DNA from: a virus | Lineage: Duplodnaviria > Heunggongvirae > Uroviricota > Caudoviricetes | Virus record (IMG/VR): IMGVR_UViG_2778260992_000008 | Coordinates: 1-56,203 of that record | DNA: 56,203 bases | Direction: 5' to 3' (one strand) | Shown: positions 1-51,355 of the stretch, piece after piece | Layout of the letters: the number at the start of each line of letters is the position of its first letter | Numbering within the stretch: position 1 is the stretch's first letter | Notes under the pieces: model-generated | What the model was told of the DNA's origin: nothing | Seen by the model: the letters and a program-made list of their open reading frames with translations, nothing else | Databases searched by the model: none | Program-made: the position numbers and the translations under genes

Positions 1-234
1 TTACGTTTTATCAGTATCAGAAAGCAAGCCTACTGACTTAAAGAACTGCATTACATCTTGATAACGATATACAGGGCGCGACGTAGTTGATAATTCGTGA
101 AGCGGTTCAGGAAATGGGGTACCTGCCGCTTCCCATTTCATTTTCCATACTCTAAAGGTTGTCCTACTTATTCCGCCAAGCATTTCCCTGATCCGTGCCG
201 TAGTTAATAATAATGTCGCGGTTTTATCCATCAC
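1..234 (-). CDS. AlpA/Xis-family small DNA-binding protein (candidate excisionase or regulator)
   Basis: 77-aa ORF; HTH-like segment LLLTTARIREMLGGISRTTFRVW; last gene of the minus-strand arm. Confidence 0.45.
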   Translation of the reverse strand: MMDKTATLLLTTARIREMLGGISRTTFRVWKMKWEAAGTPFPEPLHELSTTSRPVYRYQDVMQFFKSVGLLSDTDKT

Positions 235-1696: not shown

Positions 1697-1903
1697 TTAC
1701 ACAATCCGCATTGTGTTTCGTAATTCCCCGCGCAGCGCCCGCAATGCATCGCGCATTGGCACAAAAACCCGGTTAAATTTTACGTGTTTATATTTACGCA
1801 TCAGTGGCGGTGTATACACCATTGCGTCGTATACTTCCCACGGATAATAAACGCGCGTATCGTCAACAAACGTTTCAACTGAATAAAAGATTACACGTCT
1901 CAT
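1697..1903 (-). CDS. hypothetical protein
   Basis: 68-aa ORF in operon context. Confidence 0.35.
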   Translation of the reverse strand: MRRVIFYSVETFVDDTRVYYPWEVYDAMVYTPPLMRKYKHVKFNRVFVPMRDALRALRGELRNTMRIV

Positions 1904-2457
1904 AATTCTAACCCCGTTTCCCCGTTAAGTTTTTCGATCTCAAATACTGGTTTATCCGGTAGTAGGCCGTTATTTTTCCGGTATTCGTTCAGGCGGCTGT
2001 CAAAGTCAAACGCGAGATCATTCGCGTGACCGAAGCGACCAGGTTTAAACAGTGAGTAAAAATTAAGGCCGTGTTTATTGGTATCTATGCAAAGCGTTTC
2101 ATCCAGCACCATTAAACGCAGCGTGCGCGAAAGGTAATTCCACGGAATGCCAGTTTCCGCGCTAATATCTCTCATTCGCTTTCTAACGTTGTAGTCAGTA
2201 AATAACGCGGCTACACGCTCGCGTCGTTGTTCGTATAAATATTTAATTCGATAGCCCAGCAAGCGGCGGCGCGGGCCAAAATATGTATACACCCGCTCAA
2301 CCAGATTAGTGTCGATCAGGTGTTTAACTGTTTCCGGCAAGCATCCGGCTTCGTCGTATTCCGCTGATAATCCTGTTTTCTGGCGTAGCTGGTGCATTGT
2401 TGCGATGCCATCAAGTTCAAGGATATTGATAATTTTTGCTTCAAGTTCAATGCTCAT
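1900..2457 (-). CDS. hypothetical protein downstream of helicase gene
   Basis: ORF 1900-2493; ATG at 2457 preceded by GAGG chosen over the upstream non-ATG start. Confidence 0.4.
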   Translation of the reverse strand: MSIELEAKIINILELDGIATMHQLRQKTGLSAEYDEAGCLPETVKHLIDTNLVERVYTYFGPRRRLLGYRIKYLYEQRRERVAALFTDYNVRKRMRDISAETGIPWNYLSRTLRLMVLDETLCIDTNKHGLNFYSLFKPGRFGHANDLAFDFDSRLNEYRKNNGLLPDKPVFEIEKLNGETGLEL

Positions 2458-2536
2458 TGTTTTTCGCCTCGTTTTAAGCGCGAAAACAGCCACCAGAAAG
2501 CGGTCAACTTTCCGGTAAGCCGTTTGCTCAAGTTAA

Positions 2537-3958: not shown

Positions 3959-3976
3959 TATGGTATTGCCTCCGGT

Positions 3977-5095
3977 TTACAAAATGGAATATTCAGGGTA
4001 ATAAACAAAGCGCCCAATTTCCCCATAATCCGGGCTGTAAATTATTACCGCTGCCAGCCGCCGCGACCGCCAGCCGCCATTTGTTGAATAAGCGTCTTTG
4101 CCCGCTAACGTGCCGTGATGTTCAACGATCCCTAACGATGTTTCTACGACAGATTGATGATGTAGGTGGCCCGTGTGAGCGTAAACCGCCGCCGACTTAC
4201 CGAAATCCTCCCGCCAGTCAGAAACGCAGGCAGCCAACAAATTTTCGGGTTTTTTGATAGTGTGCCCGTGGTGGTAAGCAAGGAATGTTTTTCCGTACTG
4301 TGTGTGGTGAACGATAGCAGGGGATACATCAACCGTCACGCGCGGTTCATCTTCATAAAAAGCCGCCAGCGCCGCACGTAGCCAAATCATCCCCGATTGG
4401 TCGTGGTTGCCGGATAATACCTGGATCTCGACATCCTTATGATTTAGTAACATCTTCCCGACCGCACGCCTGACCGACCGGATCGCCACATAAACAAGTT
4501 TTGCGTAGCGACTATCTTGATCAAGAATATGTCCGCTTGTCGGTGTAACCGGGATCATCCCATCAGAATGGAGTAGATCTCCGCCTAACAGCAAAACAGC
4601 CTTTTCAGACATTGGAGCAGCGCCTACAGCGTAGTCGAAGAAGTCATTTAGCACGCGTTCAGCGATCCCGGTGTCGTAGCTTTCGCCGCATTCCGCCCTA
4701 TGCGCAAGCGCCCCGATATGAAGATCGAATACCGGATAAAGGGCCAGGCTTTTTTGGAAATCAATCTCAGGAACTGGCACAGCCTCCGCGCGGGGTATCT
4801 CTTCCGTGAAAGCATCGCAAGCCGCTTGCATTAGCCTTTCCATTTCGTCTCGATCACGGGCCGTTTTAATCCAGCGCATAATCACATTGCCATCCTTATC
4901 AACGAGCAATGATTCACCGTTAACACCGAAGCCAGGAGCGCGACGCGTGGATATTAAACCGCGCTTCGCCAGCCGTGCGCCCAGGCGTTCGACGTTGCGT
5001 TTTGCCATTCCATATTCTTCGGCTATTTGCTTGTAAGTTTTCCCCTTATTGTATTCAGCGATCAGTTGTTCGTCGCTGATCTTTCTTTGTGACAT
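3977..5095 (-). CDS. HTH-domain protein fused to calcineurin-like metallophosphoesterase
   Basis: N-terminal HTH (KTYKQIAEEYGMAKRNVERL); phosphoesterase motifs FDLHIG, GGDLLHSDG, SGNHDQ, YHHGH, HTGHLHH; sits between replication organiser and helicase. Confidence 0.6.
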   Translation of the reverse strand: MSQRKISDEQLIAEYNKGKTYKQIAEEYGMAKRNVERLGARLAKRGLISTRRAPGFGVNGESLLVDKDGNVIMRWIKTARDRDEMERLMQAACDAFTEEIPRAEAVPVPEIDFQKSLALYPVFDLHIGALAHRAECGESYDTGIAERVLNDFFDYAVGAAPMSEKAVLLLGGDLLHSDGMIPVTPTSGHILDQDSRYAKLVYVAIRSVRRAVGKMLLNHKDVEIQVLSGNHDQSGMIWLRAALAAFYEDEPRVTVDVSPAIVHHTQYGKTFLAYHHGHTIKKPENLLAACVSDWREDFGKSAAVYAHTGHLHHQSVVETSLGIVEHHGTLAGKDAYSTNGGWRSRRLAAVIIYSPDYGEIGRFVYYPEYSIL

Positions 5096-7668: not shown

Positions 7669-7975
7669 TTGCTTTTCTCCTATGGTTAAAATGAACGCGC
7701 GGGCGGGTATCCCATTAGCATTAGATAGCAGTGATTGACCGCTTAACAGATCCCGCCGTTGCGTGATATTTGTTTTTCGCTTCGCAGCGACACCGGGTTT
7801 TTAAAGAGCTTTAAGGTATGCGCCTTTTTGTGCTATTCCCTTATCTTTTTTCTTGCATCCTTGCAAGTCTGGCTTTACCTTGTCTGCAAGTTTACAGAAT
7901 GGCATTTACAGGTCAAGACTTGAAAAATACATTTTGTGACTTGCATCAAACTTTTTGGGGCGATAGGGTAGCGAC

Positions 7976-8732: not shown

Positions 8733-8775
8733 GTATACAAAATGGATTGACTCGACATATCACAGGGCGTATATT
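8733..8775 (+). promoter_or_regulatory. sigma70-like early promoter with upstream ACAAAATGG element
   Basis: TTGACT (8747-8752), 17-nt spacer, TATATT (8770-8775); GTATACAAAATGGA immediately upstream. Confidence 0.55.
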
Positions 8776-9098
8776 GCGAATCAAAGGAAGGAAGCAGGAA
8801 ACAAAAAGCACCTTCCAGGCACTTTAAAAATCAGGCTTAACACCTTGTCAACCGTGGAGTAACTCCCCGATGTGGGACCGAAAGCGGCACTGATAACAAG
8901 GCGCATGGGGTGTTTAAAGCGTTACATCCCCCACGAAACCGCACGCAAGGCGACGAGTCAGATCACTTGGATTGAGTGGTGTCACACCGGAAACGGCGAT
9001 GATTGCGGGATTAGTTGAACGATGTTAAGCCATTCTCTTTAACAATCTGGTCGCTACTGAAATGTAGCAAACATGATTTTAACTAAGGAGAAAAGATT

Positions 9099-11850: not shown

Positions 11851-12172
11851 ATTCCATAAAGCATATGATAGCGCGACAAATAAGCTATCACTATTTATCG
11901 AATTCGAACGCCGGATCGTGGTTGTACCTTATTCGCGGCGCTTCAATGACGCTGGCGGGCGGCGACAATTCGCGATCGATATGCTGTTACGCGGCTGCGG
12001 CCTTATGCGCCCGCTATCTGATTTGAAACGAATGATGCCTGGATCGTTCGGTCAGATTGATGAAATAGAAATAAGCCCGGAAGAACTGAAACGGGAGCGT
12101 GATTTATTCCTTTCAAGCGAAGGTATCCCGTTTAATTCAGAAACTGAAATGCGCTGGCATCACCCGTTATAA
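11840..12172 (+). CDS. hypothetical protein
   Basis: 110-aa ORF, overlapping tandem arrangement. Confidence 0.4.
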   Translation: MKIKFHKAYDSATNKLSLFIEFERRIVVVPYSRRFNDAGGRRQFAIDMLLRGCGLMRPLSDLKRMMPGSFGQIDEIEISPEELKRERDLFLSSEGIPFNSETEMRWHHPL

Positions 12173-12183
12173 GGATAAATATC

Positions 12184-12804
12184 ATGAACGACATCAAAAC
12201 AGCTTATTCACTTGGCAGCGAAGGCATGTTAATTACTCGCTACACAGAGGACGCAAGTTTTCACGAAGTGGAAACGAAGGACTATCACGAAGTCATTAAA
12301 GATATGGATGCAGGCGCGTATGACGGCGATTTAAACCTGGCCCTGCAAATTGCTGATCTTGTAATGGATGCGTCGATCCGCGATTACGTGTCTTTAAGCG
12401 CGGAAGAGAAAACATCGGTAGCGCGTTACGTATTCTGCCTCACTTTCGTAAAACGCATGGAAGAGGATTTCGGACGCGTGCCAGTACCGGAAGAACTGGA
12501 CCCGCTCGCATATGGTAGCGCGGTGATTGTCCCACTGGGGGACGGGGTGATGGGTAGCGCTTCGTTGCATACAGTCCGCGAACTGATGCGCACTATCCTT
12601 GAGGCTGGCGTGCTTCAGAAAGCGGTTGAAGATGGACACATCGAGAAAAACGCAAAAGAATTTATGCCGCTTATTTATGGCGAGATGGTCGGTAATGACA
12701 TGCGGGCTAATGATTTTGGCGTCCAGGCGGTGGCCTCAGTGCTGAATGAAGCGCGGAAACGTGCACAGCCAATGCCTCACCCGGAAAAACGTGTACTTCA
12801 TTAA
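12184..12804 (+). CDS. hypothetical protein (206 aa)
   Basis: ORF in track with upstream purine-rich RBS; no motif recognised. Confidence 0.5.
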   Translation: MNDIKTAYSLGSEGMLITRYTEDASFHEVETKDYHEVIKDMDAGAYDGDLNLALQIADLVMDASIRDYVSLSAEEKTSVARYVFCLTFVKRMEEDFGRVPVPEELDPLAYGSAVIVPLGDGVMGSASLHTVRELMRTILEAGVLQKAVEDGHIEKNAKEFMPLIYGEMVGNDMRANDFGVQAVASVLNEARKRAQPMPHPEKRVLH

Positions 12805-12807
12805 TCG

Positions 12808-12823
12808 TGTGACATCGTTCACA
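12808..12823. promoter_or_regulatory. perfect CRP-type palindrome TGTGA-N6-TCACA
   Basis: TGTGACATCGTTCACA; lies ~18 nt upstream of a candidate -35 (TTGTCC 12841-12846). Confidence 0.4.
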
Positions 12824-12903
12824 TAAATATACATTTTGTATTGTCCCGCTGTATCCGTTTTGTAAACTGAAGTTAGAAGGTATACAGAACGGAGGGCGGG
12901 AAG

Positions 12904-13086
12904 ATGACAAACTTTGAACGTAACCACAAAAGCAAAGTAAACCCGCATTTCATCATTGAGCGCACGTTAGGCGGACTATTCGCGATCCTGGTCCCGGCGG
13001 CGGCTGTAATGCTCGTTTACATGGTCATCGACCTGATCATTAAAGCCTTTAATAACGGGATCTGTATGTACGCGGTTTGCTATTAA
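12904..13086 (+). CDS. small membrane protein (60 aa)
   Basis: RBS GGAGGG; hydrophobic core LGGLFAILVPAAAVMLVYMVIDLII. Confidence 0.4.
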   Translation: MTNFERNHKSKVNPHFIIERTLGGLFAILVPAAAVMLVYMVIDLIIKAFNNGICMYAVCY

Positions 13087-13097
13087 CGGGGTGCGAT

Positions 13098-13316
13098 ATG
13101 GAACGGGAAATCATGCTGTATTGTGTCGAAGGTGGCGTAGGTCCGGGCGCTTACGTCGCCGGGCGGAAATATCCAGCAAACGAAGTGCTAAGCCATGAAC
13201 AATGGCGGGAGGACGCTTATCACGTAACTGTATGGGGCGCGGACGTCCAGGGCGTCGAGATGATCGGCATCGAGATGTATTTAGGGCGCTTCGATTACGC
13301 GGTTATGGAGGCTTAA
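13098..13316 (+). CDS. hypothetical protein
   Basis: ATG 13098 with RBS GGGGTG; inside track ORF 13077-13316. Confidence 0.4.
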   Translation: MEREIMLYCVEGGVGPGAYVAGRKYPANEVLSHEQWREDAYHVTVWGADVQGVEMIGIEMYLGRFDYAVMEA

Positions 13317-13318
13317 TC

Positions 13319-13417
13319 ATGTGGCTGATTGATTTAATCCTGGCTTGCTGGTTGATTGTTCTGGTTGGTTTTGTCGGGTATTTCGCTTGGGAAGAGGGAA
13401 AACACAATGGACGCTGA
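13319..13417 (+). CDS. small hydrophobic peptide (32 aa)
   Basis: MWLIDLILACWLIVLVGFVGYFAWEEGKHNGR. Confidence 0.3.
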   Translation: MWLIDLILACWLIVLVGFVGYFAWEEGKHNGR

Positions 13418-13496
13418 AATGATCTTTATGGCTTGTTGCTGTGGGATCGTCGCGGTTGGTCTGTTTCTCCGCTGGGTGATTGAAAAATATTTATGA
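13407..13496 (+). CDS. small Cys-containing hydrophobic peptide (29 aa)
   Basis: MDAEMIFMACCCGIVAVGLFLRWVIEKYL; RBS AGAGGG; overlaps the previous mini-ORF. Confidence 0.25.
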   Translation: MDAEMIFMACCCGIVAVGLFLRWVIEKYL

Positions 13497-13504
13497 GGCT
13501 GAAT

Positions 13505-13699
13505 ATGAAAAAGGTTGGCATCTATACATTGCCGGATAACGCTGAATTGGCCGGGATTGGTTTTCTCGGCTGTTATTACTACAACAGTGTAGGCGATATT
13601 TATCGTGTGCGTTTTGTTAATGGTGTGCAGTATTTTTGCAGATTACCAGACGTTACATTGATCGACCTTATCCGGGAGGTATCGTTACATGCGGTTTAA
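13505..13699 (+). CDS. hypothetical protein
   Basis: ATG 13505 preceded by GAGG; inside track ORF 13493-13699. Confidence 0.4.
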   Translation: MKKVGIYTLPDNAELAGIGFLGCYYYNSVGDIYRVRFVNGVQYFCRLPDVTLIDLIREVSLHAV

Positions 13700-13892
13700 A
13701 CATTACAGAGAATGGAAAATTCCAGAAGCAGCAACAAAGGCCGCACCTGGTAATTTTTCGGGCGTTTATTTTTATATGGATGGCAAATGGTATTTCGGCA
13801 GCAGGCCGGATCACTATTATCAAGAAATGTGTAAGCCTCACGTATGGGATATTAAAGAACGCGTGAAAGGCGGGGTAATTGAGGACGTTTAA
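13689..13892 (+). CDS. hypothetical protein
   Basis: 67-aa ORF, overlapping tandem arrangement. Confidence 0.4.
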   Translation: MRFKHYREWKIPEAATKAAPGNFSGVYFYMDGKWYFGSRPDHYYQEMCKPHVWDIKERVKGGVIEDV

Positions 13893-14114
13893 ATGTTAAG
13901 AGAAGTGTTTCACTTTTTTGGGGCGTGGCTTTTAGCCGCGCTTTTATTTTTCCTGGCGTGCGCCGTTGTTATTGCCGTCCTGATCGTCGGCGCAATGTTT
14001 ATCACATGGTCGCTTCCTGATGTTCAGTCGTGGGCGGAATTGCTTTTGGGTATACGCGTGCTATTCGCTTTTAGTGTTTTCGTGGGTTTTTTCTGGGTGG
14101 CCTCGACTTATTGA
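13893..14114 (+). CDS. small integral membrane protein
   Basis: 73 aa with two long hydrophobic segments. Confidence 0.45.
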   Translation: MLREVFHFFGAWLLAALLFFLACAVVIAVLIVGAMFITWSLPDVQSWAELLLGIRVLFAFSVFVGFFWVASTY

Positions 14115-14133
14115 GATGATCCGTGGTGATTAT

Positions 14134-14367
14134 ATGGCTTTATTCAACCTGTCAGAGCCGCAATTCAACGCCGTAAAAACTGCCGCACGCGCGGCGCTTT
14201 CTGCCTGCAAAGCAGAGGTAGAAAGAAACGGATATAGCGATAAAGCCACGCGGCTGATATTAGATAAGCATTATCGCAAGGTCGCCCCGCTAATCAGTAT
14301 TGAGCGTTTTGTGTGGTTGGTGGGATATCTGAATAACCGCTGGGGAGCAGATCAGGATTATTTCTAA
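14134..14367 (+). CDS. hypothetical protein
   Basis: ATG 14134 with RBS GGTGA (alternative ATG 14116); inside track ORF 14020-14367. Confidence 0.4.
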   Translation: MALFNLSEPQFNAVKTAARAALSACKAEVERNGYSDKATRLILDKHYRKVAPLISIERFVWLVGYLNNRWGADQDYF

Positions 14368-14376
14368 GGGGGCGTA

Positions 14377-14915
14377 ATGAAAAATGATTACGGCGGAAGC
14401 CATACGCCAAAAGAAATAAAGGACTTATGGCAAACGCCAAAACCCGTTTTTAGAGGAATGGATCGTGAATTCGAATTCGTCGCGGATGTGGCGGCAAACA
14501 AGGCAAACGCATTAGTTCCGCGATATATAACCGAAGAGATGGACACACTCCATTATCCGTGGGGAGCGGTAGCAATGCCTGGTGAGTATGTCTGGCTTAA
14601 TCCGCCATATTCGAATCCGGGCCATTCGTAGATAAGGCAGCGATGGAACATCACCGAAATCATATTGGCTGTGTAATGTTGTTGCCCGCTGATATCTCTG
14701 TTAACTGGTTTATGAACGGCCTGGAGACGGCAAGCGAATGTCGCTTAATCACGCGCGGGCGGCTGGCGTTTATTAATGCTGCGACGGGTAAGTCAGCAAG
14801 CGGAAACAATAAAGGGAGCTTGTTCTTGATCTGGCATCCACGGTGCAAACATGAATGTATTTTCACGCAGATAACACGTAAAGAGCTATACGCAAGAGGT
14901 GCAAATAATGACTAA
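14377..14915 (+). pseudogene. phage Dam-type DNA N6-adenine methyltransferase, reading frame disrupted
   Basis: ORF 14377-14631 has WQTP...WLNPPYS then stops; downstream frame 14643-14915 carries the VMLLPADIS...WF segment; a 1-nt frame change near 14610-14630 would join them. Confidence 0.55.
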
Positions 14916-15408
14916 GGCAACAGATTTATTGAGACTTGCGGCGGAAACCATAGAGCAAAGAGGTAAGCAAAACGGATACGACAAAAAAGAGGAAAAATCA
15001 GCGCCAAAAATAGCCGCTATTTACAACGCTAAGAAGGGGGCAAATTTAACCCCGCTTGATGTATGGGATCTACTAATTTGTCTCAAGGAGGCGCGATTAG
15101 AAGCTATTTTGAGCAATAATAGCAATCCGACAGACACGCTAATTGATTTGATTAGCTACAACGCGCTAAAAGCAGAACAAATATTAACGGAGCGGGAGGA
15201 AGAACAAAGAAAGAAACAGGCTGTTTTTGAAATGCCGCTGAATAGTGGATTTATAAAAGATGAAGCTATAACCAGTTGTAAGGGATTGCCGCCTTCTATG
15301 CTTAACCCTCAATGTGGTTGCATTTCAACTCGACTTGATTTGAAGTTTGATAGAGCTGAAGCTATTCGTGATAAGAGGTACGATCCAAATGAAAAGGGTG
15401 GTAATTGA
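14908..15408 (+). CDS. hypothetical protein (166 aa)
   Basis: ATG 14908 with RBS AAGAGGTG; no motif recognised. Confidence 0.45.
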   Translation: MTKATDLLRLAAETIEQRGKQNGYDKKEEKSAPKIAAIYNAKKGANLTPLDVWDLLICLKEARLEAILSNNSNPTDTLIDLISYNALKAEQILTEREEEQRKKQAVFEMPLNSGFIKDEAITSCKGLPPSMLNPQCGCISTRLDLKFDRAEAIRDKRYDPNEKGGN

Positions 15409-15892
15409 CAGGTTATTAGCCTGCGTTTATGTCGCCGTTTTCGTGATCATCAATCTTATTGTTAACCATTGCGGCCCGTGGGTAATTCCGATCACCACGG
15501 TAGCCGCCGTGTGTGTCAATATGATGATCCGTGACTTCCTGTTATATGACGGCGGCCTGAAATGGTCGGCTACCACATGCGCCATAGCTGGCGCGATCAC
15601 GGTGCTGATAAATTACGATGCCGGAATGGTGGCGATTGCGTCATTCGTCGCGGTTGTTTCCGGTGCGCTTATTTCTGGCGGTGTTTACCGGGTATTACCT
15701 GGTGACTTTGATTCTAAACGCTGGCCTGCAAATATAGCGTCCGCCATTGGTGATGCGTTAATTTTCCCCACGCTATCGTTTATGGCGTTTATGCCTGAAA
15801 TATCAGCTATGCAATTCATCTCAAAAATGGCGGCGGTAACGGTGATAACTATCATCATGCGCCGCTATTTCACGTTTGAGGGTAGGGAATGA
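15389..15892 (+). CDS. polytopic membrane protein, YhhQ/VUT-like (possible queuosine-precursor transporter)
   Basis: Several hydrophobic helices; resemblance to YhhQ-family segments judged by eye only. Confidence 0.4.
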   Translation: MKRVVIDRLLACVYVAVFVIINLIVNHCGPWVIPITTVAAVCVNMMIRDFLLYDGGLKWSATTCAIAGAITVLINYDAGMVAIASFVAVVSGALISGGVYRVLPGDFDSKRWPANIASAIGDALIFPTLSFMAFMPEISAMQFISKMAAVTVITIIMRRYFTFEGRE

Positions 15893-16677
15893 GCAGGGCT
15901 AAACATTGGTTAAATAAACAGCTTAGAAATTGGGTGGTGTGGTCGCTGTACGACGGCAGCGGGTACGCTGTTAAAGATTGGGCGGACGCTGGTTATAAAT
16001 GTTATTGCTTTAACTATGACGGCGCTAATCACGGCGATTATGACGGGGTAAAAATAATTCATCCAAATATTGAATATGTCAACGTCTGGATTGATAGCCA
16101 TTTCCTGGTAATGTTCTCCCCTGAATTGTCTGTATATCCAGATCCTGACATTATCCTGGGCTTTCCTCCGTGTGATGATCTTGCTGTGTCCGGCGCTCGT
16201 TGGTTCGCTGATAAGCGGAAGAAAGATCCTTACTTTCAGCAGAAAGCAGCGTACAACGCAAAACTGGTAGAAACGCTGGCGAGTATGTATAACGTCCCGT
16301 GGATGGTGGAAAATCCTGTGGGCGCACTGTCAACGTTATGGCGTAAACCTGATTTTATTTTCAATCCGTGCGCTTACGGTGGCTACCTGCCGGAAGATGA
16401 CAAGCATCCTGCTTTCCCGGAATACATCGCTGCCCGTGACGCCTACACGAAGAAAACTTGTATTTGGTGTGGAAATGGATTTAAGCAGCCGCTATTCCGG
16501 CCTGTATCGATGCCGGATGAATGGGAAGACAGTAAACAGCACGCTAAGTTAGGAGGAAAATCGAAACGCACTAAGATGATCCGCTCACTAACGCCGCGCG
16601 GCTTTGCCCGTGCTGTATTCCTGGCTAACGACCGGGCTATCACGCGGACGACGCTTAACCGTGTTTTACCGGATTGA
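15889..16677 (+). CDS. DNA C5-cytosine methyltransferase-like protein with atypical motif IV
   Basis: Motif I-like LYDGSGY; motif IV-like GFPPCDD (canonical PCQ); motif VI-like MVENPVG; only 262 aa. Confidence 0.45.
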   Translation: MSRAKHWLNKQLRNWVVWSLYDGSGYAVKDWADAGYKCYCFNYDGANHGDYDGVKIIHPNIEYVNVWIDSHFLVMFSPELSVYPDPDIILGFPPCDDLAVSGARWFADKRKKDPYFQQKAAYNAKLVETLASMYNVPWMVENPVGALSTLWRKPDFIFNPCAYGGYLPEDDKHPAFPEYIAARDAYTKKTCIWCGNGFKQPLFRPVSMPDEWEDSKQHAKLGGKSKRTKMIRSLTPRGFARAVFLANDRAITRTTLNRVLPD

Positions 16678-16699
16678 TGTTTACAAAATGGCGTCATTG

Positions 16700-16715
16700 T
16701 GTGATGAAGGTCACA
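16700..16715. promoter_or_regulatory. perfect CRP-type palindrome TGTGA-N6-TCACA
   Basis: TGTGATGAAGGTCACA, ~18 nt upstream of candidate -35 TTGTTC (16733-16738) and -10 TATACT (16755-16760). Confidence 0.4.
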
Positions 16716-16840
16716 TAATGGCGCTTTTTACTTTGTTCGGGTGTATCCATTTTGTATACTGCAATCAAACGAAATGCTCTTTAAAAATCCGGCCCCGCTG
16801 AAATGCGGAAACACATCACCTAACAGAATGAGATCAAATT

Positions 16841-17017
16841 ATGAACGATGACAGGTATGCGTGGCATGACGACTACGAGCGCGAATGCGTAATGCGGGCA
16901 ATGTGCAATTTGTGTAACCCCGACAAAGGAGACTGTAACGAGTGCAACAAATGCGTAGATCATTGGCTAAGGGCCGGAGCCGCCGCAAAGCCGAACGAAA
17001 TAGAAAATCGAAAATAA
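16841..17017 (+). CDS. small Cys-rich protein, NinF-like by position
   Basis: 58 aa with eight Cys (CNLCNPDKGDCNECNKC); immediately upstream of ninG; weak RBS. Confidence 0.35.
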   Translation: MNDDRYAWHDDYERECVMRAMCNLCNPDKGDCNECNKCVDHWLRAGAAAKPNEIENRK

Positions 17018-17031
17018 TTGGGGTGATCTTT

Positions 17032-17646
17032 ATGCAAAATCCCAAAAAACCCATAAGACGCCGTTGCAAGTGCTGCGGCGTTTTTTTTGAGCCTAAATAT
17101 CATAATCAAACGTGGTGCAGCGATGAATGTCTGGAAGAACTGAAGTTTGACCAGCTATGCCGCGACCGTGAAAAGGCTATGAAGGCGATGGAACGGAAGA
17201 AACGCCGCGATAGCCAGCGTGATGAACGCAACAGGAAGCGGAAACAGTTAAATCCGCGCAGTTATTGGTTAAAGCAGGCGCAAAACGTGTTTAACGCATA
17301 TATTCGCGAACGTGACGCAGGACAGCCGTGTATATCTTGCGGGACTTATTATTACGAACAATGCGGAATCGATGCGGGACACTGGCGCACAGTAGCGGCA
17401 GCCGGACACCTTCGCTTTAACGAGGATAACGTAAACCTACAATGCCGACATTGCAATCAGGTATTAGACGGCAATGTTGAGTTATACAGAATAAATTTAA
17501 TAAAAAAAATAGGATTAGAAAGGGTTGAGGCATTAGAAAATAATAACGAGACTCACAAATGGACGATCGAAGAATGCAAAGAAATAATAAATATATATCA
17601 GCGTAAATTAGACACATTAAGGAAGGAGAGAGCGCAATGCGCATGA
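17032..17646 (+). CDS. ninG: NinG/Rap-family recombination protein
   Basis: WLKQAQNVFNAYIRERD...CISCG...GH...LRFNEDNVNLQCRHCN...GN match lambda NinG; start 17032 with RBS GGGGTGA. Confidence 0.75.
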   Translation: MQNPKKPIRRRCKCCGVFFEPKYHNQTWCSDECLEELKFDQLCRDREKAMKAMERKKRRDSQRDERNRKRKQLNPRSYWLKQAQNVFNAYIRERDAGQPCISCGTYYYEQCGIDAGHWRTVAAAGHLRFNEDNVNLQCRHCNQVLDGNVELYRINLIKKIGLERVEALENNNETHKWTIEECKEIINIYQRKLDTLRKERAQCA

Positions 17647-17661
17647 TTGGGAGTGTATTGC

Positions 17662-18138
17662 ATGATGAATTGGCACGAATGGTTTTGTTACGATGGTATT
17701 AACCTGATATGGAAAAAGTCACGCGGTAGAATGAAAGCAGGGAGTATTGCTGGGTGTCCAAATGATACTGGTCGCATACGCGTTAGGCTTTTTGGTAGAT
17801 GGTATAAAGCGCACCGTATTATATGGGAAATGCACAACGGCCCTATCCCGGAAGGATACGAGATAGACCATTTAGATCATGACCCTAGCAATAACAGGCT
17901 TAATAATTTTAGATTGGTATTAGGTAAGGAGAACGCGAAGAATAGACCAAAAAATAAAAATAATACCAGCGGGTATACTGGTATCTCATGGGACAAAGGA
18001 AGGGGTAAATGGTCGGTAACGATAATGGTTAATTATAAAACCATTCATCTAGGTAGATTTGATAATTTAGAGGACGCAATAAAGGCAAGACAAGAAGCTG
18101 AAATTAAATACGGTTTTCATCCAAATCACGGTAAGTAA
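17662..18138 (+). CDS. HNH endonuclease with AP2 DNA-binding domain
   Basis: HRIIWEMHNGPIPEGYEIDHLDHDPSNNRLNN then GYTGISWDKGRGKWSV...HLGRFDNLEDAIKARQEAE; AT-rich insertion between ninG and rusA. Confidence 0.75.
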   Translation: MMNWHEWFCYDGINLIWKKSRGRMKAGSIAGCPNDTGRIRVRLFGRWYKAHRIIWEMHNGPIPEGYEIDHLDHDPSNNRLNNFRLVLGKENAKNRPKNKNNTSGYTGISWDKGRGKWSVTIMVNYKTIHLGRFDNLEDAIKARQEAEIKYGFHPNHGK

Positions 18139-22968: not shown

Positions 22969-23008
22969 ACAAAATGGCATTGTTCAGGCAGTGCCATTTT
23001 GTTATAAA
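22969..23008 (+). promoter_or_regulatory. inverted repeat ACAAAATGGCA/TGCCATTTTGT overlapping a sigma70-like promoter
   Basis: 11-nt arms at 22969-22979 and 22992-23002; TTGTTC (22980-22985), 17-nt spacer, TATAAA (23003-23008). Confidence 0.5.
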
Positions 23009-23043: not shown

Positions 23044-23316
23044 ATGAAACGCTGGATTAACGAAGAAACAGAGTCCCGCTTCAATGCAATTTGGGATCTG
23101 ATTGAAAAAGAGGACGGCGTTTCTAGTCCCTACCTGAACAATCTTGAGTTCCACTATGTAGAAGCGATGAACGCAGAGCATGACCACGAAGGCGGTGCTG
23201 ATGAATTCGCTAAAAAATACGGCTTCGATGATGCAAACCATATGATTAACAACGTGGTGATGCAGGCAGAGGAAGACTACGAATGCAAATCACTTGAATT
23301 CGCACGCATGGCATAA
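23044..23316 (+). CDS. hypothetical acidic protein
   Basis: RBS GGAGGG; 90-aa ORF. Confidence 0.4.
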   Translation: MKRWINEETESRFNAIWDLIEKEDGVSSPYLNNLEFHYVEAMNAEHDHEGGADEFAKKYGFDDANHMINNVVMQAEEDYECKSLEFARMA

Positions 23317-37616: not shown

Positions 37617-38228
37617 TTAGTTCCAGTGGCAAGCATTTTTCACTTTGTTGATATGTTTTTCTAAGCCTTCGATGTTGAATGTTGCTTTTTCGATATAGCC
37701 CGCTTCCGGCAATGTTTCGATAATGAATTGTTTCTCGTTAAGCATTTTTTTAATCATCGGGATGGCTTTTTTGCCGTTCCATAATCCCAGGGCTTTATAG
37801 TTAGTTGCCCGTTGCCATTCTGCTTTCACCGCTTTATGTTCCCCGATCCGGTAGGTAACTTGGGTGGTATCGCCAGCATCCGCAATCATGTTATGCCAGG
37901 CTACAAACATTTTTGTTGTATTGGCTTTGCATTCGATAACTAATACCGGTTTATTTTTCTCTTTTGCTTTCAGTGCCGGGAAATCATCAAGCTGACCGTT
38001 AAATTTTACCGCTTTGACATGTAGCTGTACATTGGGTGTATCGTGCATATCGTCCTTACCTTCCCACACGGCCCACTGTTTCCCAATGTTATCCCGTTCC
38101 ATTTCTTGATGTTTTTCAGCTATTTCTTTTTCAAATTGTTTAATATTTTCAAGGCTTTTTGCTTGTTGTTCGCAACCAACCAGCCCAACCAGCGCCGCCA
38201 TTATTGCCACTTTCGCTAACCGTTTCAT
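37617..38228 (-). CDS. lipoprotein (accessory gene, opposite strand, inside tail module)
   Basis: Signal peptide plus lipobox MKRLAKVAIMAALVGLVGC; ATG 38228 with GGGG RBS; own promoter and terminator. Confidence 0.6.
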   Translation of the reverse strand: MKRLAKVAIMAALVGLVGCEQQAKSLENIKQFEKEIAEKHQEMERDNIGKQWAVWEGKDDMHDTPNVQLHVKAVKFNGQLDDFPALKAKEKNKPVLVIECKANTTKMFVAWHNMIADAGDTTQVTYRIGEHKAVKAEWQRATNYKALGLWNGKKAIPMIKKMLNEKQFIIETLPEAGYIEKATFNIEGLEKHINKVKNACHWN

Positions 38229-38276
38229 AAAACACCCCGTTTGCCTTGAATTACTAACCACTTCCTATAGCTTCTT

Positions 38277-38316
38277 TATACAAAATGGAGTCGTTAAAGC
38301 AAATCCATTTTGTATA
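38277..38316. promoter_or_regulatory. perfect inverted repeat TATACAAAATGGA-N14-TCCATTTTGTATA with divergent promoter elements
   Basis: 13-nt arms at 38277-38289 and 38304-38316; TATAAA-like hexamers at both ends, one per strand. Confidence 0.55.
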
Positions 38317-38354
38317 AAATAGTTACACAGATCACAAAAACGGAGATCAACGCT

Positions 38355-41539: not shown

Positions 41540-41689
41540 TCATCTTCCATATCTCACCCCATCGCGCTTATAAGGCTTGTTATCAGCAAACGGGATTAAC
41601 GCATCGTTTGCCACCTGGCGATTAAACCAATCTTTCAGGACAACCAGGGAAAACCGGATGCCGTAGCTATGTAATTCGTGCCATTTCAT
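41540..41689 (-). CDS. small hypothetical protein (49 aa)
   Basis: ATG overlaps stop of upstream 84-aa gene (ATGA). Confidence 0.25.
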   Translation of the reverse strand: MKWHELHSYGIRFSLVVLKDWFNRQVANDALIPFADNKPYKRDGVRYGR

Positions 41690-41940
41690 TTATGACACCC
41701 CCGCACGCCGCATAATTCATTGTATTTATGATGCTCAACAATCAACCAAACTTTTAGATCCTGGCTGTAAAGCCGCCAATCAGGGTTGATATCGAATTTA
41801 AAACCATAACCATCTCGTAACTTTTTGGGGTGGGCTTCTTTATTTAGGAAAGCATTTAATAAAGCCTTACCCTTTTTGATGATCCGGTCCTGCGCGTTTT
41901 TTTGTGCTTTCAAATTTTTATCAATCGCTACCAGTTTCAT
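41686..41940 (-). CDS. hypothetical basic protein (84 aa)
   Basis: ORF in track; second gene of a tightly packed minus-strand cassette. Confidence 0.45.
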   Translation of the reverse strand: MKLVAIDKNLKAQKNAQDRIIKKGKALLNAFLNKEAHPKKLRDGYGFKFDINPDWRLYSQDLKVWLIVEHHKYNELCGVRGCHK

Positions 41941-42126: not shown

Positions 42127-42295
42127 CTTGGGCCTCCTTTGTTGGTACTGCTTTTCTTCTTGCTTTCTGTATACATCTTGTTGCGTCCTGTGTGAAGCCA
42201 TTTTGTAAACTGGTTATAATTCTTGTGATGAAGTTCTCATTTTTCGCGTAGAAGCGCGTAAAGATGTACACAAAATGTAACTTATAGGGGGAATT

Positions 42296-43195: not shown

Positions 43196-43444
43196 CTATA
43201 AGTTATCACGCAGATAATTAACGCCCTTGTCAGTGACGAATGAATGATTAACCTGGTTTTCATCCGTCATAATAATGAATAACTTTTCCTGTAAGTATTT
43301 TGCTTTTGGGTACAGCGTTAAACAGACCTGATACAGTATCCCGCGCTCAATCAGCAAATCAATAAATTCGTGCTCATGATAACCGATGAGACGGGCGGCC
43401 TGTTTCAACGTGTACACATAATCACCGTGATTGCGCCGCCCCAT
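43196..43444 (-). CDS. hypothetical protein (82 aa), possibly DNA-binding
   Basis: ORF in track; YTLKQAARLIGYHEHEFIDLLIERGIL has HTH-like character. Confidence 0.4.
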   Translation of the reverse strand: MGRRNHGDYVYTLKQAARLIGYHEHEFIDLLIERGILYQVCLTLYPKAKYLQEKLFIIMTDENQVNHSFVTDKGVNYLRDNL

Positions 43445-43452
43445 GTTGCCGC

Positions 43453-43806
43453 CTATTTATCAAAGCAACTTAAATTATCGATACAGAAGTCTTTAGCAGC
43501 ATTTTCGTATTCGCGTTTTGCTTCAGGATCGTCAGCCGGGAAGCCTTTTGCGTGGATTTCACCAGGGCAAGACTGATCCATAGAGTCTGCAAATTCAACA
43601 TTGACGTTAAAGTTAATATCTTTCGGGTTCATATCTTCCACCTTCTCGGCTATTTGTACCGGAGTTATTTTGAATTCCCTGGCGCGCCCGAAGAAGCGAA
43701 CAAGTTTTTCTCCTTCCTCGACTGCCATTTCGTAACTGTCATGTAAGCCGTAACCTTCCCAATCCTTACTGCCTGCCATCCATACATCGAGACGGTATTT
43801 TTGCAT
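43453..43806 (-). CDS. hypothetical acidic protein (117 aa)
   Basis: ATG 43806 four nt after upstream stop; track ORF extends to 43860. Confidence 0.4.
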   Translation of the reverse strand: MQKYRLDVWMAGSKDWEGYGLHDSYEMAVEEGEKLVRFFGRAREFKITPVQIAEKVEDMNPKDINFNVNVEFADSMDQSCPGEIHAKGFPADDPEAKREYENAAKDFCIDNLSCFDK

Positions 43807-43807
43807 T

Positions 43808-43975
43808 TTACTGATCCCCGCTTTTAATCGGTTTAATCCGGTAGCCCAGGACGCGATCATCTTTTTCCGATAGGTCGAGGGCCGTTTCTAGGGCGTCGCC
43901 AGGGTTATCGAATTCAGCCTCGATATCACGCCCGTTACTCATGAATAAGGTCAGTCGCCATAGTTTATCGTTCAT
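43808..43975 (-). CDS. small hypothetical acidic protein (55 aa)
   Basis: MNDKLWRLTLFMSNGRDIEAEFDNPGDALETALDLSEKDDRVLGYRIKPIKSGDQ; RBS AAGGGCGCGGG; first gene downstream of minus-strand promoter. Confidence 0.35.
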   Translation of the reverse strand: MNDKLWRLTLFMSNGRDIEAEFDNPGDALETALDLSEKDDRVLGYRIKPIKSGDQ

Positions 43976-44061: not shown

Positions 44062-44106
44062 GTATGATTTGGCGTGACGCAGATCACAAAATCAGAAGGT
44101 GAGAAA

Positions 44107-50367: not shown

Positions 50368-50960
50368 TGGCAACCTTCGGAGCTTATTTGAGATTAAGTA
50401 ACGGGAATATTTTCGTTACACCGGAAGCGACGCCGCTTTGCTTATATAAACGGGTGGCATTAACATCATCGAATCAAACCGTCGCCGTGCCACCCGGAAA
50501 ACCCGTGATGGTATTTGTGAAAAGCACTACCGCCGCCGCTGTATTAGCTTATAGAAATAGTTCATCGACTTTACTGATCGGTGCTGGTTCGGGGTATGCG
50601 TATATTTTCAGTATTTTCCCGCCATCGCTGCCGAAATGGGGAATGGCTATCTGGAACGCTTCCGGGGAACTGGTGCTAACTAATGAATCAAGAATATTAA
50701 CAGACCTTGTAACCGTGGGGACAGCAGGATCAAGTGGCGGGATTTATATAGACCAGACGTTATCCGGTTCTTATGCTATTTGCCCCCAATTGTTAGGGGC
50801 GCTCGTTGGACAGGGTAGTGCCTCCATTTATGCGGCGGCTTATTACAACGGAAGCACGACCAGAATTTACGGTATCCAGGCGGGTAGCGTATATGCACCA
50901 ACTGGCTATATCAACCACGGGAACGCTATCACCGCCATTAAAACCGACGCCTATGATTAA
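50367..50960 (+). CDS. hypothetical tail-associated protein (MATFG paralog 2)
   Basis: 197 aa; ATGA overlap; begins MATFGAYL and shares WNASGE with paralog 1. Confidence 0.45.
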   Translation: MATFGAYLRLSNGNIFVTPEATPLCLYKRVALTSSNQTVAVPPGKPVMVFVKSTTAAAVLAYRNSSSTLLIGAGSGYAYIFSIFPPSLPKWGMAIWNASGELVLTNESRILTDLVTVGTAGSSGGIYIDQTLSGSYAICPQLLGALVGQGSASIYAAAYYNGSTTRIYGIQAGSVYAPTGYINHGNAITAIKTDAYD

Positions 50961-51196
50961 TTCAGTTCCGGGCAATCCGTTTTCTTGAAGTGGTCAACGC
51001 TTACCCATTGAAAATTAAACGGATACCCGGCCTTAACCATTTTATGACCGCCAACATCCGCGACACCGAAGACTGCAACCGCATATTCATTACCGCCAGT
51101 TTGATAAATTGCCGTGCATTCACGTTTAGGCATGTCAGCGCAACCAACCAGACCAGCAACCATTGCAACGATAGCGATATTTTTTAAGCCTTTCAT
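50957..51196 (-). CDS. Cor-like lipoprotein (candidate superinfection exclusion)
   Basis: Signal plus lipobox MKGLKNIAIVAMVAGLVGC; ATG 51196 with RBS GGAGGG; between J and side tail fibre, where cor sits in lambdoid phages. Confidence 0.45.
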   Translation of the reverse strand: MKGLKNIAIVAMVAGLVGCADMPKRECTAIYQTGGNEYAVAVFGVADVGGHKMVKAGYPFNFQWVSVDHFKKTDCPELN

Positions 51197-51355
51197 TGTC
51201 TTACCCTCCGTTGTTTCGTTGGTTGTAGTATCCACAAACTGTATTTTCTCAACATTGATATAAATCAACAAATACATTTTGTATAAACCAAAAATGTAAC
51301 ATAGATCACAAAATGGTAGAATTATTCCGTTAATTAACATAATGGAGTCATTGCA

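What the first reader, a model, noticed from the sequence alone, without database searches (positions are those of the whole stretch)
12808..12823. Perfect CRP-type palindromes (TGTGA-N6-TCACA) upstream of two early promoters, with near-copies at late promoters
TGTGACATCGTTCACA (12808-12823) and TGTGATGAAGGTCACA (16700-16715) are perfect matches to the CRP core palindrome. Each lies about 18 nt upstream of a plausible -35, near the classic class I position. Near-copies sit just downstream of -10-like hexamers before gene M (TGTGATGAAGTTCTCA, 42225-42240), gene L (CGTGACGCAGATCACA, 44073-44088), the tail fibre (TGTAACATAGATCACA, 51294-51309) and cI (7935-7950). This suggests cAMP-CRP input or a phage regulator with a similar site.
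Basis: partly seen in the sequence, partly recalled or inferred. Interest (0 to 1): 0.55.

Follow-up and report, generated by a model that had tools for sequence, protein, structure and literature searches.

The report
CRP-type sites at phage promoters
A temperate E. coli phage of the mEp021 (mEpimmI) family carries conserved matches to the binding site of the host sugar-starvation regulator CRP at a fixed activator-type distance from several of its promoters, which suggests untested nutritional control of phage genes; one of the two perfect sites is also the tip of a transcription terminator.

Summary
Two perfect TGTGA-N6-TCACA cores occur (0.03 expected). Cores with at most 1 mismatch number 6 against 1.45 expected, and all six are intergenic.

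The window is an mEp021-like (mEpimmI) coliphage. Across about 1.2 Mb of family DNA, such cores pile up at only six homologous loci.

At P1 (12.8 kb), P2 (16.7 kb, just upstream of nutR2) and P3 (22.9 kb), the core centre lies 25.5 bp from a weak -35 and 47.5 bp from the -10. The -35 distance equals that of lac P1, a class I geometry. PL and a leftward moron promoter have it at 48.5 bp.

Four loci show conserved arms and a variable spacer. No CRP-like phage protein was found. The only regulator-like candidate exists as two alleles of 36% identity, yet the sites are the same in phages carrying either allele.

Best explanation (about 0.6): host cAMP-CRP binds these sites, activating P1, P2 and P3.

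- Site 2 is also the apex of a strong terminator hairpin (t4, -24.5 kcal/mol).
- Site 1 is perfect only in a minority of relatives.
- The cI "copy" is a promoter/operator sequence.
- The late-region copies adjoin minus-strand moron promoters.

Nothing was tested experimentally. This is a new member of a known kind and of moderate interest.

The parts
12808..12823 (.). Site 1: perfect CRP-type core TGTGACATCGTTCACA, upstream of promoter P1
   Evidence: Conserved in the family as (C/A/T)GTGA-N6-TCACA-TAA. No significant hairpin (-6.1 kcal/mol, z +0.4).
12841..12868 (+). Promoter P1: -35 TTGTCC (12841-46), 16-bp spacer containing the block TCCGTTTTG, -10 TAAACT (12863-68)
   Evidence: Sequence. 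The block is conserved. The core centre is 25.5 bp from the -35 and 47.5 bp from the -10.
13920..13954 (+). t3-like intrinsic terminator closing the short P1 unit of small membrane ORFs (12904-13866)
   Evidence: Terminator scan. Corresponds to TERM_3 of mEp021.
16690..16735 (+). t4 terminator: 16-bp-stem hairpin GGCGTCATTGTGTGA-TGAAGG-TCACATAATGGCGCT followed by TTTTACTTTG. Its apex is site 2.
   Evidence: RNA fold -24.5 kcal/mol, z -6.4. Terminator scan. mEp021 TERM_4 annotation. Stem nearly invariant with a hypervariable 4-nt loop.
16700..16715 (.). Site 2: perfect CRP-type core TGTGATGAAGGTCACA
   Evidence: In the family it is (T/C)GTGAT-N4-(A/G)TCACA, always 42 bp upstream of the P2 block.
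16733..16760 (+). Promoter P2: -35 TTGTTC (16733-38), 16-bp spacer with TCCATTTTG, -10 TATACT (16755-60)
16775..16808 (+). nutR2: boxA TGCTCTTTAAAAA (16775-87) and boxB CCGCTGAAATGCGG (16795-808), 15 nt downstream of the P2 -10
   Evidence: Sequence. nutR2 is described downstream of the cytosine methyltransferase gene in PMC11893012.
22947..22962 (.). Site 3: degenerate here (CGTGATCTACCCCGCA, 3 mismatches); in 13 related loci it is the perfect core TGTGATCTGTATCACA (18 of 22 consensus positions in the loci scored)
   Evidence: No hairpin.
22980..23007 (+). Promoter P3: -35 TTGTTC, 16-bp spacer with GCCATTTTG, -10 TTATAA, ahead of ORF 23044-23316
   Evidence: Site 3 centre is 25.5 bp from the -35 and 47.5 bp from the -10.
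7935..7950 (.). 1-mismatch core TGTGACTTGCATCAAA. It overlaps the cI-proximal -10-like block and a CI operator half-site (CTTGCA). On the minus strand it lies 48.5 bp upstream of the PL -10.
   Evidence: Invariant including the spacer, so its status as a CRP site is doubtful.
7889..7916 (-). PL: TTGACC (7916-7911), N16, TAAACT (7894-7889), followed by operator-like TGCAAG repeats and nutL boxA (7809-7798)
   Evidence: Sequence; conserved.
38321..38336 (.). r38: AGTTACACAGATCACA. Only the GATCACA half is conserved. It lies 48.5 bp upstream of the leftward -10 TATAAA (38280-38275) of a VasI-like lipoprotein moron, and 2 nt downstream of the rightward TATAAA (38313-18).
42224..42239 (.). r42: TGTGATGAAGTTCTCA, with conserved arms and a variable spacer. 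Its centre is 35.5 bp from the -35 of the leftward promoter TTCACA (42196-91)-N17-TATACA (42173-68), which precedes the minus-strand gene starting near 42126 upstream of the ParE-like toxin gene. It also lies 3 nt downstream of the rightward TATAAT (42215-20).
44073..44088 (.). r44: CGTGACGCAGATCACA, with invariant arms and a variable spacer, 4 nt downstream of TATGAT (44063-68) and ahead of gene L
   Evidence: No hairpin.
51295..51310 (.). r51: TGTAACATAGATCACA (16 of 22 consensus positions), between the minus-strand Lpp-type lipoprotein gene (50957-51196) and the tail-fibre gene, 7 nt downstream of TATAAA (51282-87)

Best explanation
The palindromes are DNA sites for the host cAMP receptor protein (CRP).

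At three rightward promoters they sit where a class I CRP site sits: P1 (12.8 kb), P2 (16.7 kb) and P3 (22.9 kb, strong in relatives but decayed in this window). The same position is possibly used at PL and at two leftward moron promoters. Each of P1, P2 and P3 has a weak -35 (TTGTYC), a 16-bp spacer and a good -10. cAMP-CRP bound there would recruit RNA polymerase through the alpha C-terminal domain and raise transcription when cAMP is high.

What each promoter feeds:
- P1 drives a short unit of small membrane proteins that ends at a terminator.
- P2 restarts transcription immediately after terminator t4 and immediately before nutR2. Its transcripts can therefore be modified by the N-like Gp17 and reach NinG, RusA and Q.

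The site 2 sequence is dual-use. As RNA it is the top of the t4 hairpin; as DNA it is the CRP core.

The late-region sites (r38, r42, r44, r51) lie between minus-strand morons and tail genes. There the same protein would activate the leftward moron promoters (r38 and r42 are in phase) and/or occlude the rightward -10s that they abut.

Shown: the sequences, their conservation, the geometry, the hairpin and the absence of a CRP-like phage protein. Inferred: CRP binding, the sign of regulation and the activity of the promoters.
For: - Two perfect cores against 0.03 expected. Six cores with at most 1 mismatch against 1.45 expected, all intergenic.
- Family census over 1.19 Mb: such cores cluster at six homologous loci only.
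- Site 3 in relatives matches 18 of 22 positions of the CRP consensus AAATGTGATCTAGATCACATTT, against 15 of 22 for lac P1 (consensus from PMC2859248).
- Fixed geometry: 83 family instances lie 47.5 bp from the -10 and 29 lie at 48.5 bp. Centre to -35 is 25.5 bp, identical to lac P1.
- In the window 5 of 15 block-type promoters have a core with at most 3 mismatches at that offset. The other ten have 5-10 mismatches there.
- Arms are conserved and spacers variable at site 2, r42, r44 and r51.
- Sites 1, 3, r42, r44 and r51 have no significant hairpin.
- No CRP/FNR or cNMP-binding domain was found in about 70 phage ORFs.
- The MarR-like candidate exists as two alleles of 36% identity, while the cores are the same in phages carrying either allele.
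- The CI operators are a different palindrome, CTTGCA-N4-TGCAAG.
Against: - There are no binding or expression data.
- Site 2's conservation pattern is fully explained by the t4 terminator hairpin (-24.5 kcal/mol, z -6.4).
- At site 1 most relatives have C or A at core position 1, one clade has AGTAA, and there is no variable-spacer signature.
- P1, P2 and P3 look like paralogous cassettes (72% identity between P1 and P2), so part of the shared geometry could be inherited rather than independently selected.
- Measured from a standard transcription start, the centre is at about -59.5 rather than -61.5, because the spacer is 16 bp.
- The late-region geometry is heterogeneous (r44 is off-phase, r51 is unclear).
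- The promoters themselves are predicted, not mapped.
Confidence: 0.6

Rival explanations
1. A phage-encoded dimeric regulator, not host CRP, recognises (T/C)GTGA-N6-TCACA and controls these promoters. It would activate from about -60 and repress near +1.
For: The sites form a phage-wide set tied to the phage's own promoter block. Many early ORFs have no known function. A weakly MarR-like protein (1900-2493, minus strand) and a small HTH protein (1-234, minus strand) exist. Phage-encoded activators with dyad sites at about -55 are known (P2 Ogr / P4 Delta; own knowledge).
Against: No CRP/FNR-type DNA-binding or cNMP domain was found. The MarR-like candidate occurs as two alleles of 36% identity with a divergent central region, yet the cores are identical in both groups. 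The shared part of all the sites is exactly the CRP core. Site 3 also matches the CRP-specific extension TGTGATCT, which would be an unlikely coincidence for an unrelated protein.
Confidence: 0.12
2. There is no regulator site. Site 2 is simply the apex of terminator t4. Site 1 is a decayed paralogue of the same terminator-promoter cassette. The other copies are conserved for unrelated reasons (promoter, 5'-UTR or operator sequence).
For: There is a strong hairpin followed by a T-run at site 2, annotated as TERM_4 in mEp021. Variation at the loop edges keeps U.G / U-A pairing. The P1 and P2 regions are 72% identical. Site 1 lacks the spacer signature. The cI copy is operator/promoter sequence. 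Copies with 2 mismatches occur at chance level.
Against: This does not explain why non-hairpin palindromes at P1, P3, PL and P38-left sit at the same 47.5-48.5 bp offset. It does not explain why r42, r44 and r51 have conserved arms and variable spacers without any hairpin. It does not explain why site 3 is a near-consensus CRP site amid poorly conserved flanks. It does not explain why the apex of t4 should match the core at 9-10 of 10 positions.
Confidence: 0.15
3. The conserved GATC inside many of the sites (GATCACA) is the functional element. Dam methylation state (the phage encodes its own Dam), or SeqA binding, would modulate these promoters.
For: GATCACA is invariant at r38, r44 and r51 and common at sites 1-3. 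A Dam gene lies downstream of P1, but beyond the t3-like terminator that closes the short P1 unit (Pfam PF05869; terminator).
Against: Both perfect sites in this window, and many site 2 variants, lack GATC (GTTCACA, GGTCACA, TGTCACA). The left arm is also conserved. GATC is itself part of the full CRP consensus.
Confidence: 0.05

Closest known systems
Class I CRP-dependent promoters of E. coli (lac P1 type)
   Same: The TGTGA-N6-TCACA core is the same. The core centre is 25.5 bp upstream of the first base of a weak -35, which equals lac P1. A T-tract lies 18-19 bp from the site centre, where the alpha C-terminal domain docks. All sites use an N6 spacer.
   Different: The -35/-10 spacer is 16 bp, so the centre is about -59.5 from a standard start rather than -61.5. 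The promoters are phage promoters sharing an unusual conserved spacer block (TCCRTTTTG). Site 2 overlaps a terminator hairpin. Neither binding nor activation has been shown.
cAMP-CRP control of phage T1 promoters (pir; dam and recE also inhibited) (PMC6737242)
   Same: The host CRP acts on phage promoters and links phage development to carbon status. In both cases a Dam methylase gene is in the neighbourhood.
   Different: In T1, CRP represses and glucose induces lysis. Here the geometry at P1, P2 and P3 predicts activation. The phage family is different (mEpimmI siphoviruses with CI, N-like and Q-like regulators).
Lambda-type promoter-nut arrangement (PL-nutL, PR-nutR) and the mEp021 Gp17 system with nutL, nutR1 and nutR2 (PMC11893012)
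   Same: boxA/boxB lie directly downstream of a promoter. The window's nutR2 sits after the cytosine methyltransferase gene, as described for mEp021.
   Different: The published description does not mention a promoter or a CRP-type site between t4 and nutR2. Here nutR2 is preceded by its own promoter-like element, which would explain why a third nut site is needed.
P2 Ogr / P4 Delta-dependent late promoters (TGT-N12-ACA dyad at about -55; own knowledge)
   Same: A dyad-symmetric site lies upstream of a weak -35 at several phage promoters, and activation works through the RNA polymerase alpha subunit.
   Different: The dyad is different (TGTGA-N6-TCACA is TGT-N10-ACA). No Ogr/Delta-type zinc-finger activator was identified here.

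Membership tests
CRP (CAP) DNA binding site | Match to the 22-bp consensus AAATGTGATCTAGATCACATTT, above all the TGTGA-N6-TCACA core | tested here: met
   Sites 1 and 2 match 10 of 10 core positions. r42, r44, r51 and the cI site match 9 of 10. Site 3 in relatives matches 18 of 22 positions, and r51 matches 16 of 22, against 15 of 22 for lac P1. The consensus is quoted in PMC2859248.
CRP (CAP) DNA binding site | Purifying selection on the two arms but not on the central spacer | tested here: inconclusive
   Met at r42, r44 and r51. Met at site 2, but there a hairpin explains it equally well. Not met at site 1, r38 or the cI site.
CRP (CAP) DNA binding site | Binding of cAMP-CRP in vitro or in vivo | not testable with these tools
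   Needs a gel shift, footprint or ChIP.
Class I CRP-activated promoter | Site centred at -61.5 (or about one helical turn further upstream), upstream of the -35 (PMC2859248) | tested here: met
   Centre to -35 is 25.5 bp at P1, P2 and P3, identical to lac P1. It is 26.5 bp at PL and 25.5-26.5 bp at P38-left. It is 35.5 bp at the leftward r42 promoter, one turn further (the lac sequence is from own knowledge). From a standard start the centre is about -59.5, because the spacer is 16 bp.
Class I CRP-activated promoter | Promoter activity depends on crp/cya and on AR1-alphaCTD contact; mapped transcript start | not testable with these tools
   No expression or 5'-end data exist for this family in the held literature. 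The family paper never mentions CRP.
Rho-independent terminator (site 2 only) | Stable G+C-containing hairpin immediately followed by a U-run at the end of a gene | tested here: met
   A 16-bp stem, -24.5 kcal/mol, z -6.4, followed by TTTTACTTTG, starting 13 nt after the methyltransferase stop codon. It equals TERM_4 of mEp021 and is listed as the predicted terminator t4 in PMC11893012. Sites 1, 3, r42, r44 and r51 do not meet this feature.
CI (Rep021) operator | Shares the repeated palindrome of the immunity region | tested here: not met
   The immunity region carries CTTGCATCCTTGCAAG (7852-67) and CTTGCA/TGCAAG half-sites. None occurs near sites 1-3.

The most novel reading that the evidence does not exclude
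The mEpimmI phages may embed a family-wide cAMP-CRP regulon. One sequence would be used twice: as RNA it terminates the upstream early operon (t4), and as DNA it recruits CRP to restart transcription at a nut-equipped internal promoter (P2) that feeds the Q antiterminator gene. Host carbon status would then gate late-gene expression independently of PR. The same factor would also tune PL against cI and the prophage's exclusion and toxin morons.
Probability: 0.25. Interest if true: 0.7.

Novelty: new member of a known kind. Interest (0 to 1): 0.45.

Why it matters
cAMP and CRP have long been known to influence lysis-lysogeny outcomes in enteric phages, yet direct CRP targets on phage genomes are few; T1 is one. 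The mEpimmI phages are reported to be as prevalent as lambdoid phages in a collection of human faecal isolates, and their transcriptional wiring beyond CI, Gp17 and Q is unknown.

A conserved set of CRP-type sites at fixed activator distance gives concrete, cheap experiments: reporter fusions in crp and cya hosts. It would also explain why this family needs a third nut site, because nutR2 would serve an internal CRP-dependent promoter. Finally, it would connect gut carbon availability to expression of Q, methyltransferases, superinfection-exclusion lipoproteins and a toxin-antitoxin module.

Tried and rejected
- Hairpin or terminator as a general explanation: true only for site 2. Sites 1, 3, r42, r44 and r51 fold no better than shuffled sequence.
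- CI operator: rejected, because the immunity region uses a different palindrome.
- Phage CRP-like protein: none found by Pfam in about 70 ORFs.
- PHROGs gave one weak MarR-like hit. Its two alleles of 36% identity do not co-vary with the sites.
- Rfam: no family matches anywhere in the window.
- 'Near-copies are just chance': first suggested by the 2-mismatch count, then overturned by the 1-mismatch count and the family census.
- Uniform class I geometry for the leftward promoters of r44 and r51: not found (28.5 bp and unclear).
- The Gp17/nut paper (Arch Virol 2023; PMID 36795170) is not in the library, so the published t4 and nutR2 constructs could not be checked.
- A quantitative CRP weight matrix was not used, because no curated matrix was available. 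Only consensus matches were counted.

Full report
**What the window is.** Megablast of 12000-17500 finds 83-87% identity to Escherichia phages MagusPhagus, mEp010, mEp013, mEp021, mEp044, mEp515 and mEp554. These are the 'mEpimmI' group of Nus-dependent, non-lambdoid temperate coliphages described in PMC11893012. Thirty-five complete E. coli genomes carry related prophages. That paper describes a CI-like repressor, an N-like antiterminator (Gp17) acting at nutL, nutR1 and nutR2, a Q-like protein and terminators t1-t5. It never mentions CRP.

**The observation.** TGTGACATCGTTCACA (12808-12823) and TGTGATGAAGGTCACA (16700-16715) are the only perfect TGTGA-N6-TCACA cores in the window; 0.03 are expected. 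With up to 2 mismatches the count is at chance (23 against 20.6). With up to 1 mismatch there are 6 against 1.45 expected, and 0 of 100 shuffles reach 6. All six are intergenic: 7935, 12808, 16700, 42224, 44073 and 51295.

**The two perfect sites belong to a repeated module.** Each perfect site lies exactly 42 bp upstream of a conserved block, TGTATCCnTTTTGTAnACTG (12850-69 and 16742-61). The block reads as spacer plus -10 of a promoter:
- P1 is TTGTCC-N16-TAAACT.
- P2 is TTGTTC-N16-TATACT.

The shorter motif TCCRTTTTGTAWA is enriched in the window (22 against 7.7 expected). It marks gene starts on both strands.

At PL the block coincides with the spacer and -10 of a canonical promoter, TTGACC-N16-TAAACT (7916-7889, minus strand). 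Operator-like repeats and nutL follow it. This supports reading the blocks as promoter cores.

P2 is followed 15 nt later by boxA (TGCTCTTTAAAAA, 16775-87) and boxB (16795-808). This is nutR2, which the literature places after the cytosine methyltransferase gene. P1 leads into small membrane-protein ORFs and a t3-like terminator at 13920-13944.

**Family comparison.** I fetched 54 loci anchored on the methyltransferase gene, 31 family loci anchored on gene M, and further loci anchored on ORF 23044, on cI and on a MarR-like gene.
- Site 2 is present in essentially all family members as (T/C)GTGAT-N4-(A/G)TCACA-TAA.
- Site 1 is present as (C/A/T)GTGA-N6-TCACA-TAA.
- Both are always at the same offset from the block.

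A census of 1.19 Mb of family DNA finds 163 cores with at most 1 mismatch. Of these, 143 fall at six homologous loci:

| Locus (window position) | Family loci with a core |
|---|---|
| 12.8 kb (site 1) | 26 |
| 16.7 kb (site 2) | 42 |
| 22.9 kb (site 3) | 20 |
| 42.2 kb (r42) | 14 |
| 44.1 kb (r44) | 30 |
| 51.3 kb (r51) | 11 |

All other hits are singletons or small scattered groups (at most 4 loci each, plus 10 unmapped hits). The 22.9-kb locus (site 3) is perfect in 13 loci. As TGTGATCTGTATCACA it matches 18 of 22 positions of the CRP consensus, against 15 of 22 for lac P1. In this window site 3 has decayed to CGTGATCTACCCCGCA.

**Geometry.** Across the family the core centre lies 47.5 bp upstream of the first base of the -10 in 83 instances (P1, P2, P3). 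It lies at 48.5 bp in 29 instances. The 48.5-bp group includes the 7935 site read on the minus strand relative to PL, and the r38 site relative to the leftward promoter of a lipoprotein moron.

Centre to the first base of the -35 is 25.5 bp at P1, P2 and P3. Counting the lac P1 sequence from memory reproduces its textbook -61.5 position and gives the same 25.5 bp. The class I definition is quoted in PMC2859248.

In the window, 5 of 15 block-type promoters carry a core with at most 3 mismatches at this offset. The other ten show 5-10 mismatches, which is the random expectation.

At r42 a good leftward promoter, TTCACA-N17-TATACA (42196-42168), has the core centre 35.5 bp from its -35, one helical turn further. 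At r44 the best leftward candidate is off-phase (28.5 bp), and at r51 I could not assign one.

All four late-region sites also abut rightward -10-like hexamers. Their centres fall at about +2 to +9, a repressor-type position.

**Selection pattern.** Mean column entropy (bits per column) over unique family sequences:

| Locus | Left arm | Spacer | Right arm | Flanks |
|---|---|---|---|---|
| site 2 | 0.20 | 0.87 | 0.00 | 0.31 |
| r42 | 0.20 | 0.81 | 0.24 | 0.22 |
| r44 | 0.00 | 0.66 | 0.00 | 0.26 |
| r51 | 0.34 | 0.63 | 0.18 | 0.35 |

These four loci show the conserved-arms, variable-spacer signature. Site 1 does not (0.50 / 0.41 / 0.24 / 0.34): everything from GTGA through the promoter is conserved, and only 3 of 22 unique variants have T at core position 1. 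The cI site is invariant including its spacer, which is a CI operator half-site.

**The complication at site 2.** The palindrome extends to GGCGTCATTGTGTGA-TGAAGG-TCACATAATGGCGCT followed by TTTTACTTTG. As RNA this is a 16-bp-stem hairpin of -24.5 kcal/mol (z -6.4). The terminator scan flags it, and it coincides with TERM_4 / t4 of mEp021.

The stem is nearly invariant and the 4-nt loop is hypervariable. The loop-closing position varies only between U.G and U-A. So site 2's conservation pattern has a sufficient RNA-level explanation.

That explanation does not extend to the other sites, whose folds are no better than shuffled sequence. It also does not explain why the apex of t4 should be a 9-10 of 10 CRP core at exactly the offset used by the non-hairpin sites at P1 and P3. 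I therefore read site 2 as dual-use.

**Who binds?**
- The immunity region uses a different palindrome, CTTGCATCCTTGCAAG at 7852-67.
- Pfam scans of about 70 ORFs (all early genes and the tail-region morons) find no CRP/FNR HTH or cNMP-binding domain. The clear DNA or RNA regulators found are CI, the N-like protein and Q.
- PHROGs weakly labels ORF 1900-2493 (minus strand) as MarR-like. The family carries two alleles of it that are 36% identical and conserved only at their termini. Phages with either allele have the same cores.
- The shared part of all the sites is exactly the CRP core, and site 3 also carries the consensus extension TGTGATCT.

The host CRP is therefore the most economical binder. 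cAMP-CRP acting directly on phage promoters has a precedent in T1 (PMC6737242).

**Proposed mechanism (inferred).** When cAMP is high, CRP bound at about -60 recruits RNA polymerase to P1, P2 and P3.
- P1 is a self-contained promoter-gene-terminator unit.
- P2 restarts transcription between t4 and nutR2. This gives Gp17-modifiable transcripts that reach Q, and it would explain why the family needs a third nut site.
- In the tail region the same protein would favour the leftward moron promoters over the rightward -10s it overlaps. The morons are a VasI-like lipoprotein, a ParE-like toxin and an Lpp-type exclusion lipoprotein.
- At 7935 a CRP-like core sits at class I distance from PL while overlapping the cI-proximal promoter and operator. 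Because that sequence is invariant for other reasons, I do not count it as evidence.

**Rivals.**
- A phage-encoded regulator with a CRP-like site: 0.12.
- No regulator at all, meaning a terminator apex plus a decayed paralogue plus coincidences: 0.15.
- GATC / Dam-centred control: 0.05.

These are set out with their tests in the structured fields. None of them explains the combination of consensus match, fixed offset at non-hairpin sites and spacer-specific variability as well as CRP does. None is excluded without experiments.

**Verdict.** The CRP interpretation is partly supported and is the best available. It is qualified by the terminator overlap at site 2, by the weaker site 1 in most relatives, and by the total absence of functional data. 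This is a new member of a known kind (CRP-type class I promoters, here in a recently described phage family), and its interest is moderate.

Noticed in passing
window-wide, e.g. 3976-3988(-), 8734-8746(-), 12854-66(+), 16680-92(-), 16746-58(+), 22966-78(-), 38277-89(-), 38304-16(+), 42197-209(+), 51273-85(+): The 13-bp motif TCCRTTTTGTAWA is enriched (22 against 7.7 expected). It forms the spacer and -10 of most predicted promoters. It often occurs as inverted pairs with variable spacing (12, 14 or about 54 nt), for example TATACAAAATGGA-N14-TCCATTTTGTATA at 38277-38316. Why the spacer part is conserved is unexplained; shared ancestry or a factor binding the spacer are both possible.
   Followed up: partly
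7852-7867 and neighbouring half-sites at 7885-7890 and 7940-7945: The perfect palindrome CTTGCATCCTTGCAAG and CTTGCA/TGCAAG half-sites lie between nutL and cI. These are probably the operators of the CI-like repressor (Rep021), which the literature has not defined.
   Followed up: partly
8748-8776 (+) and 9035-9068 (+): A canonical promoter TTGACT-N17-TATATT, probably PR, is followed by nutR1 (boxA CTCTTTAACAA 9035-45; boxB GCTACTGAAATGTAGC 9053-68). An inverted promoter block abuts the PR -35 and points leftward into the 3' end of cI, so it may drive an antisense transcript.
   Followed up: no
37617-38261(-), 41686-41940(-), 43196-43860(-), 50957-51196(-): Minus-strand morons are inserted in the tail gene cluster: a VasI-like lipoprotein, a ParE-like toxin, a KilAC/ANT-like protein plus an unknown ORF, and an Lpp-type lipoprotein that is probably the superinfection-exclusion protein. 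Each is flanked by a conserved intergenic region with promoter blocks on both strands.
   Followed up: partly
42240-42258: A conserved T5 run followed by the small hairpin CGCG-TAGAAG-CGCG lies directly after the r42 palindrome. Its function is unknown. Its loop resembles a boxB loop only loosely.
   Followed up: no
1900-2493(-); loci L201-L242: The weakly MarR-like core gene exists in the family as two alleles that are only 36% identical. They share nearly identical N- and C-terminal ends and differ in the centre, a mosaic or cassette-like replacement.
   Followed up: partly
L021 and L029, site 1 (about position 3214 and 3208 in each locus): Two relatives have TGTGG-N6-TCGCA at site 1, and the same TTGCGATCGC string recurs at the P1 -35 region. 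This looks like a concerted change of two nearby repeats, or gene conversion.
   Followed up: no
17647-18138(+): An HNH endonuclease with an AP2-like domain is inserted between the NinG and RusA genes. It is probably a homing-endonuclease-type insertion.
   Followed up: no
22.7-23.4 kb; L001: The P3 / site 3 region and its downstream ORF (23044-23316) are absent from mEp021 itself. They lie in a flexible segment between Q and the lysis genes.
   Followed up: partly
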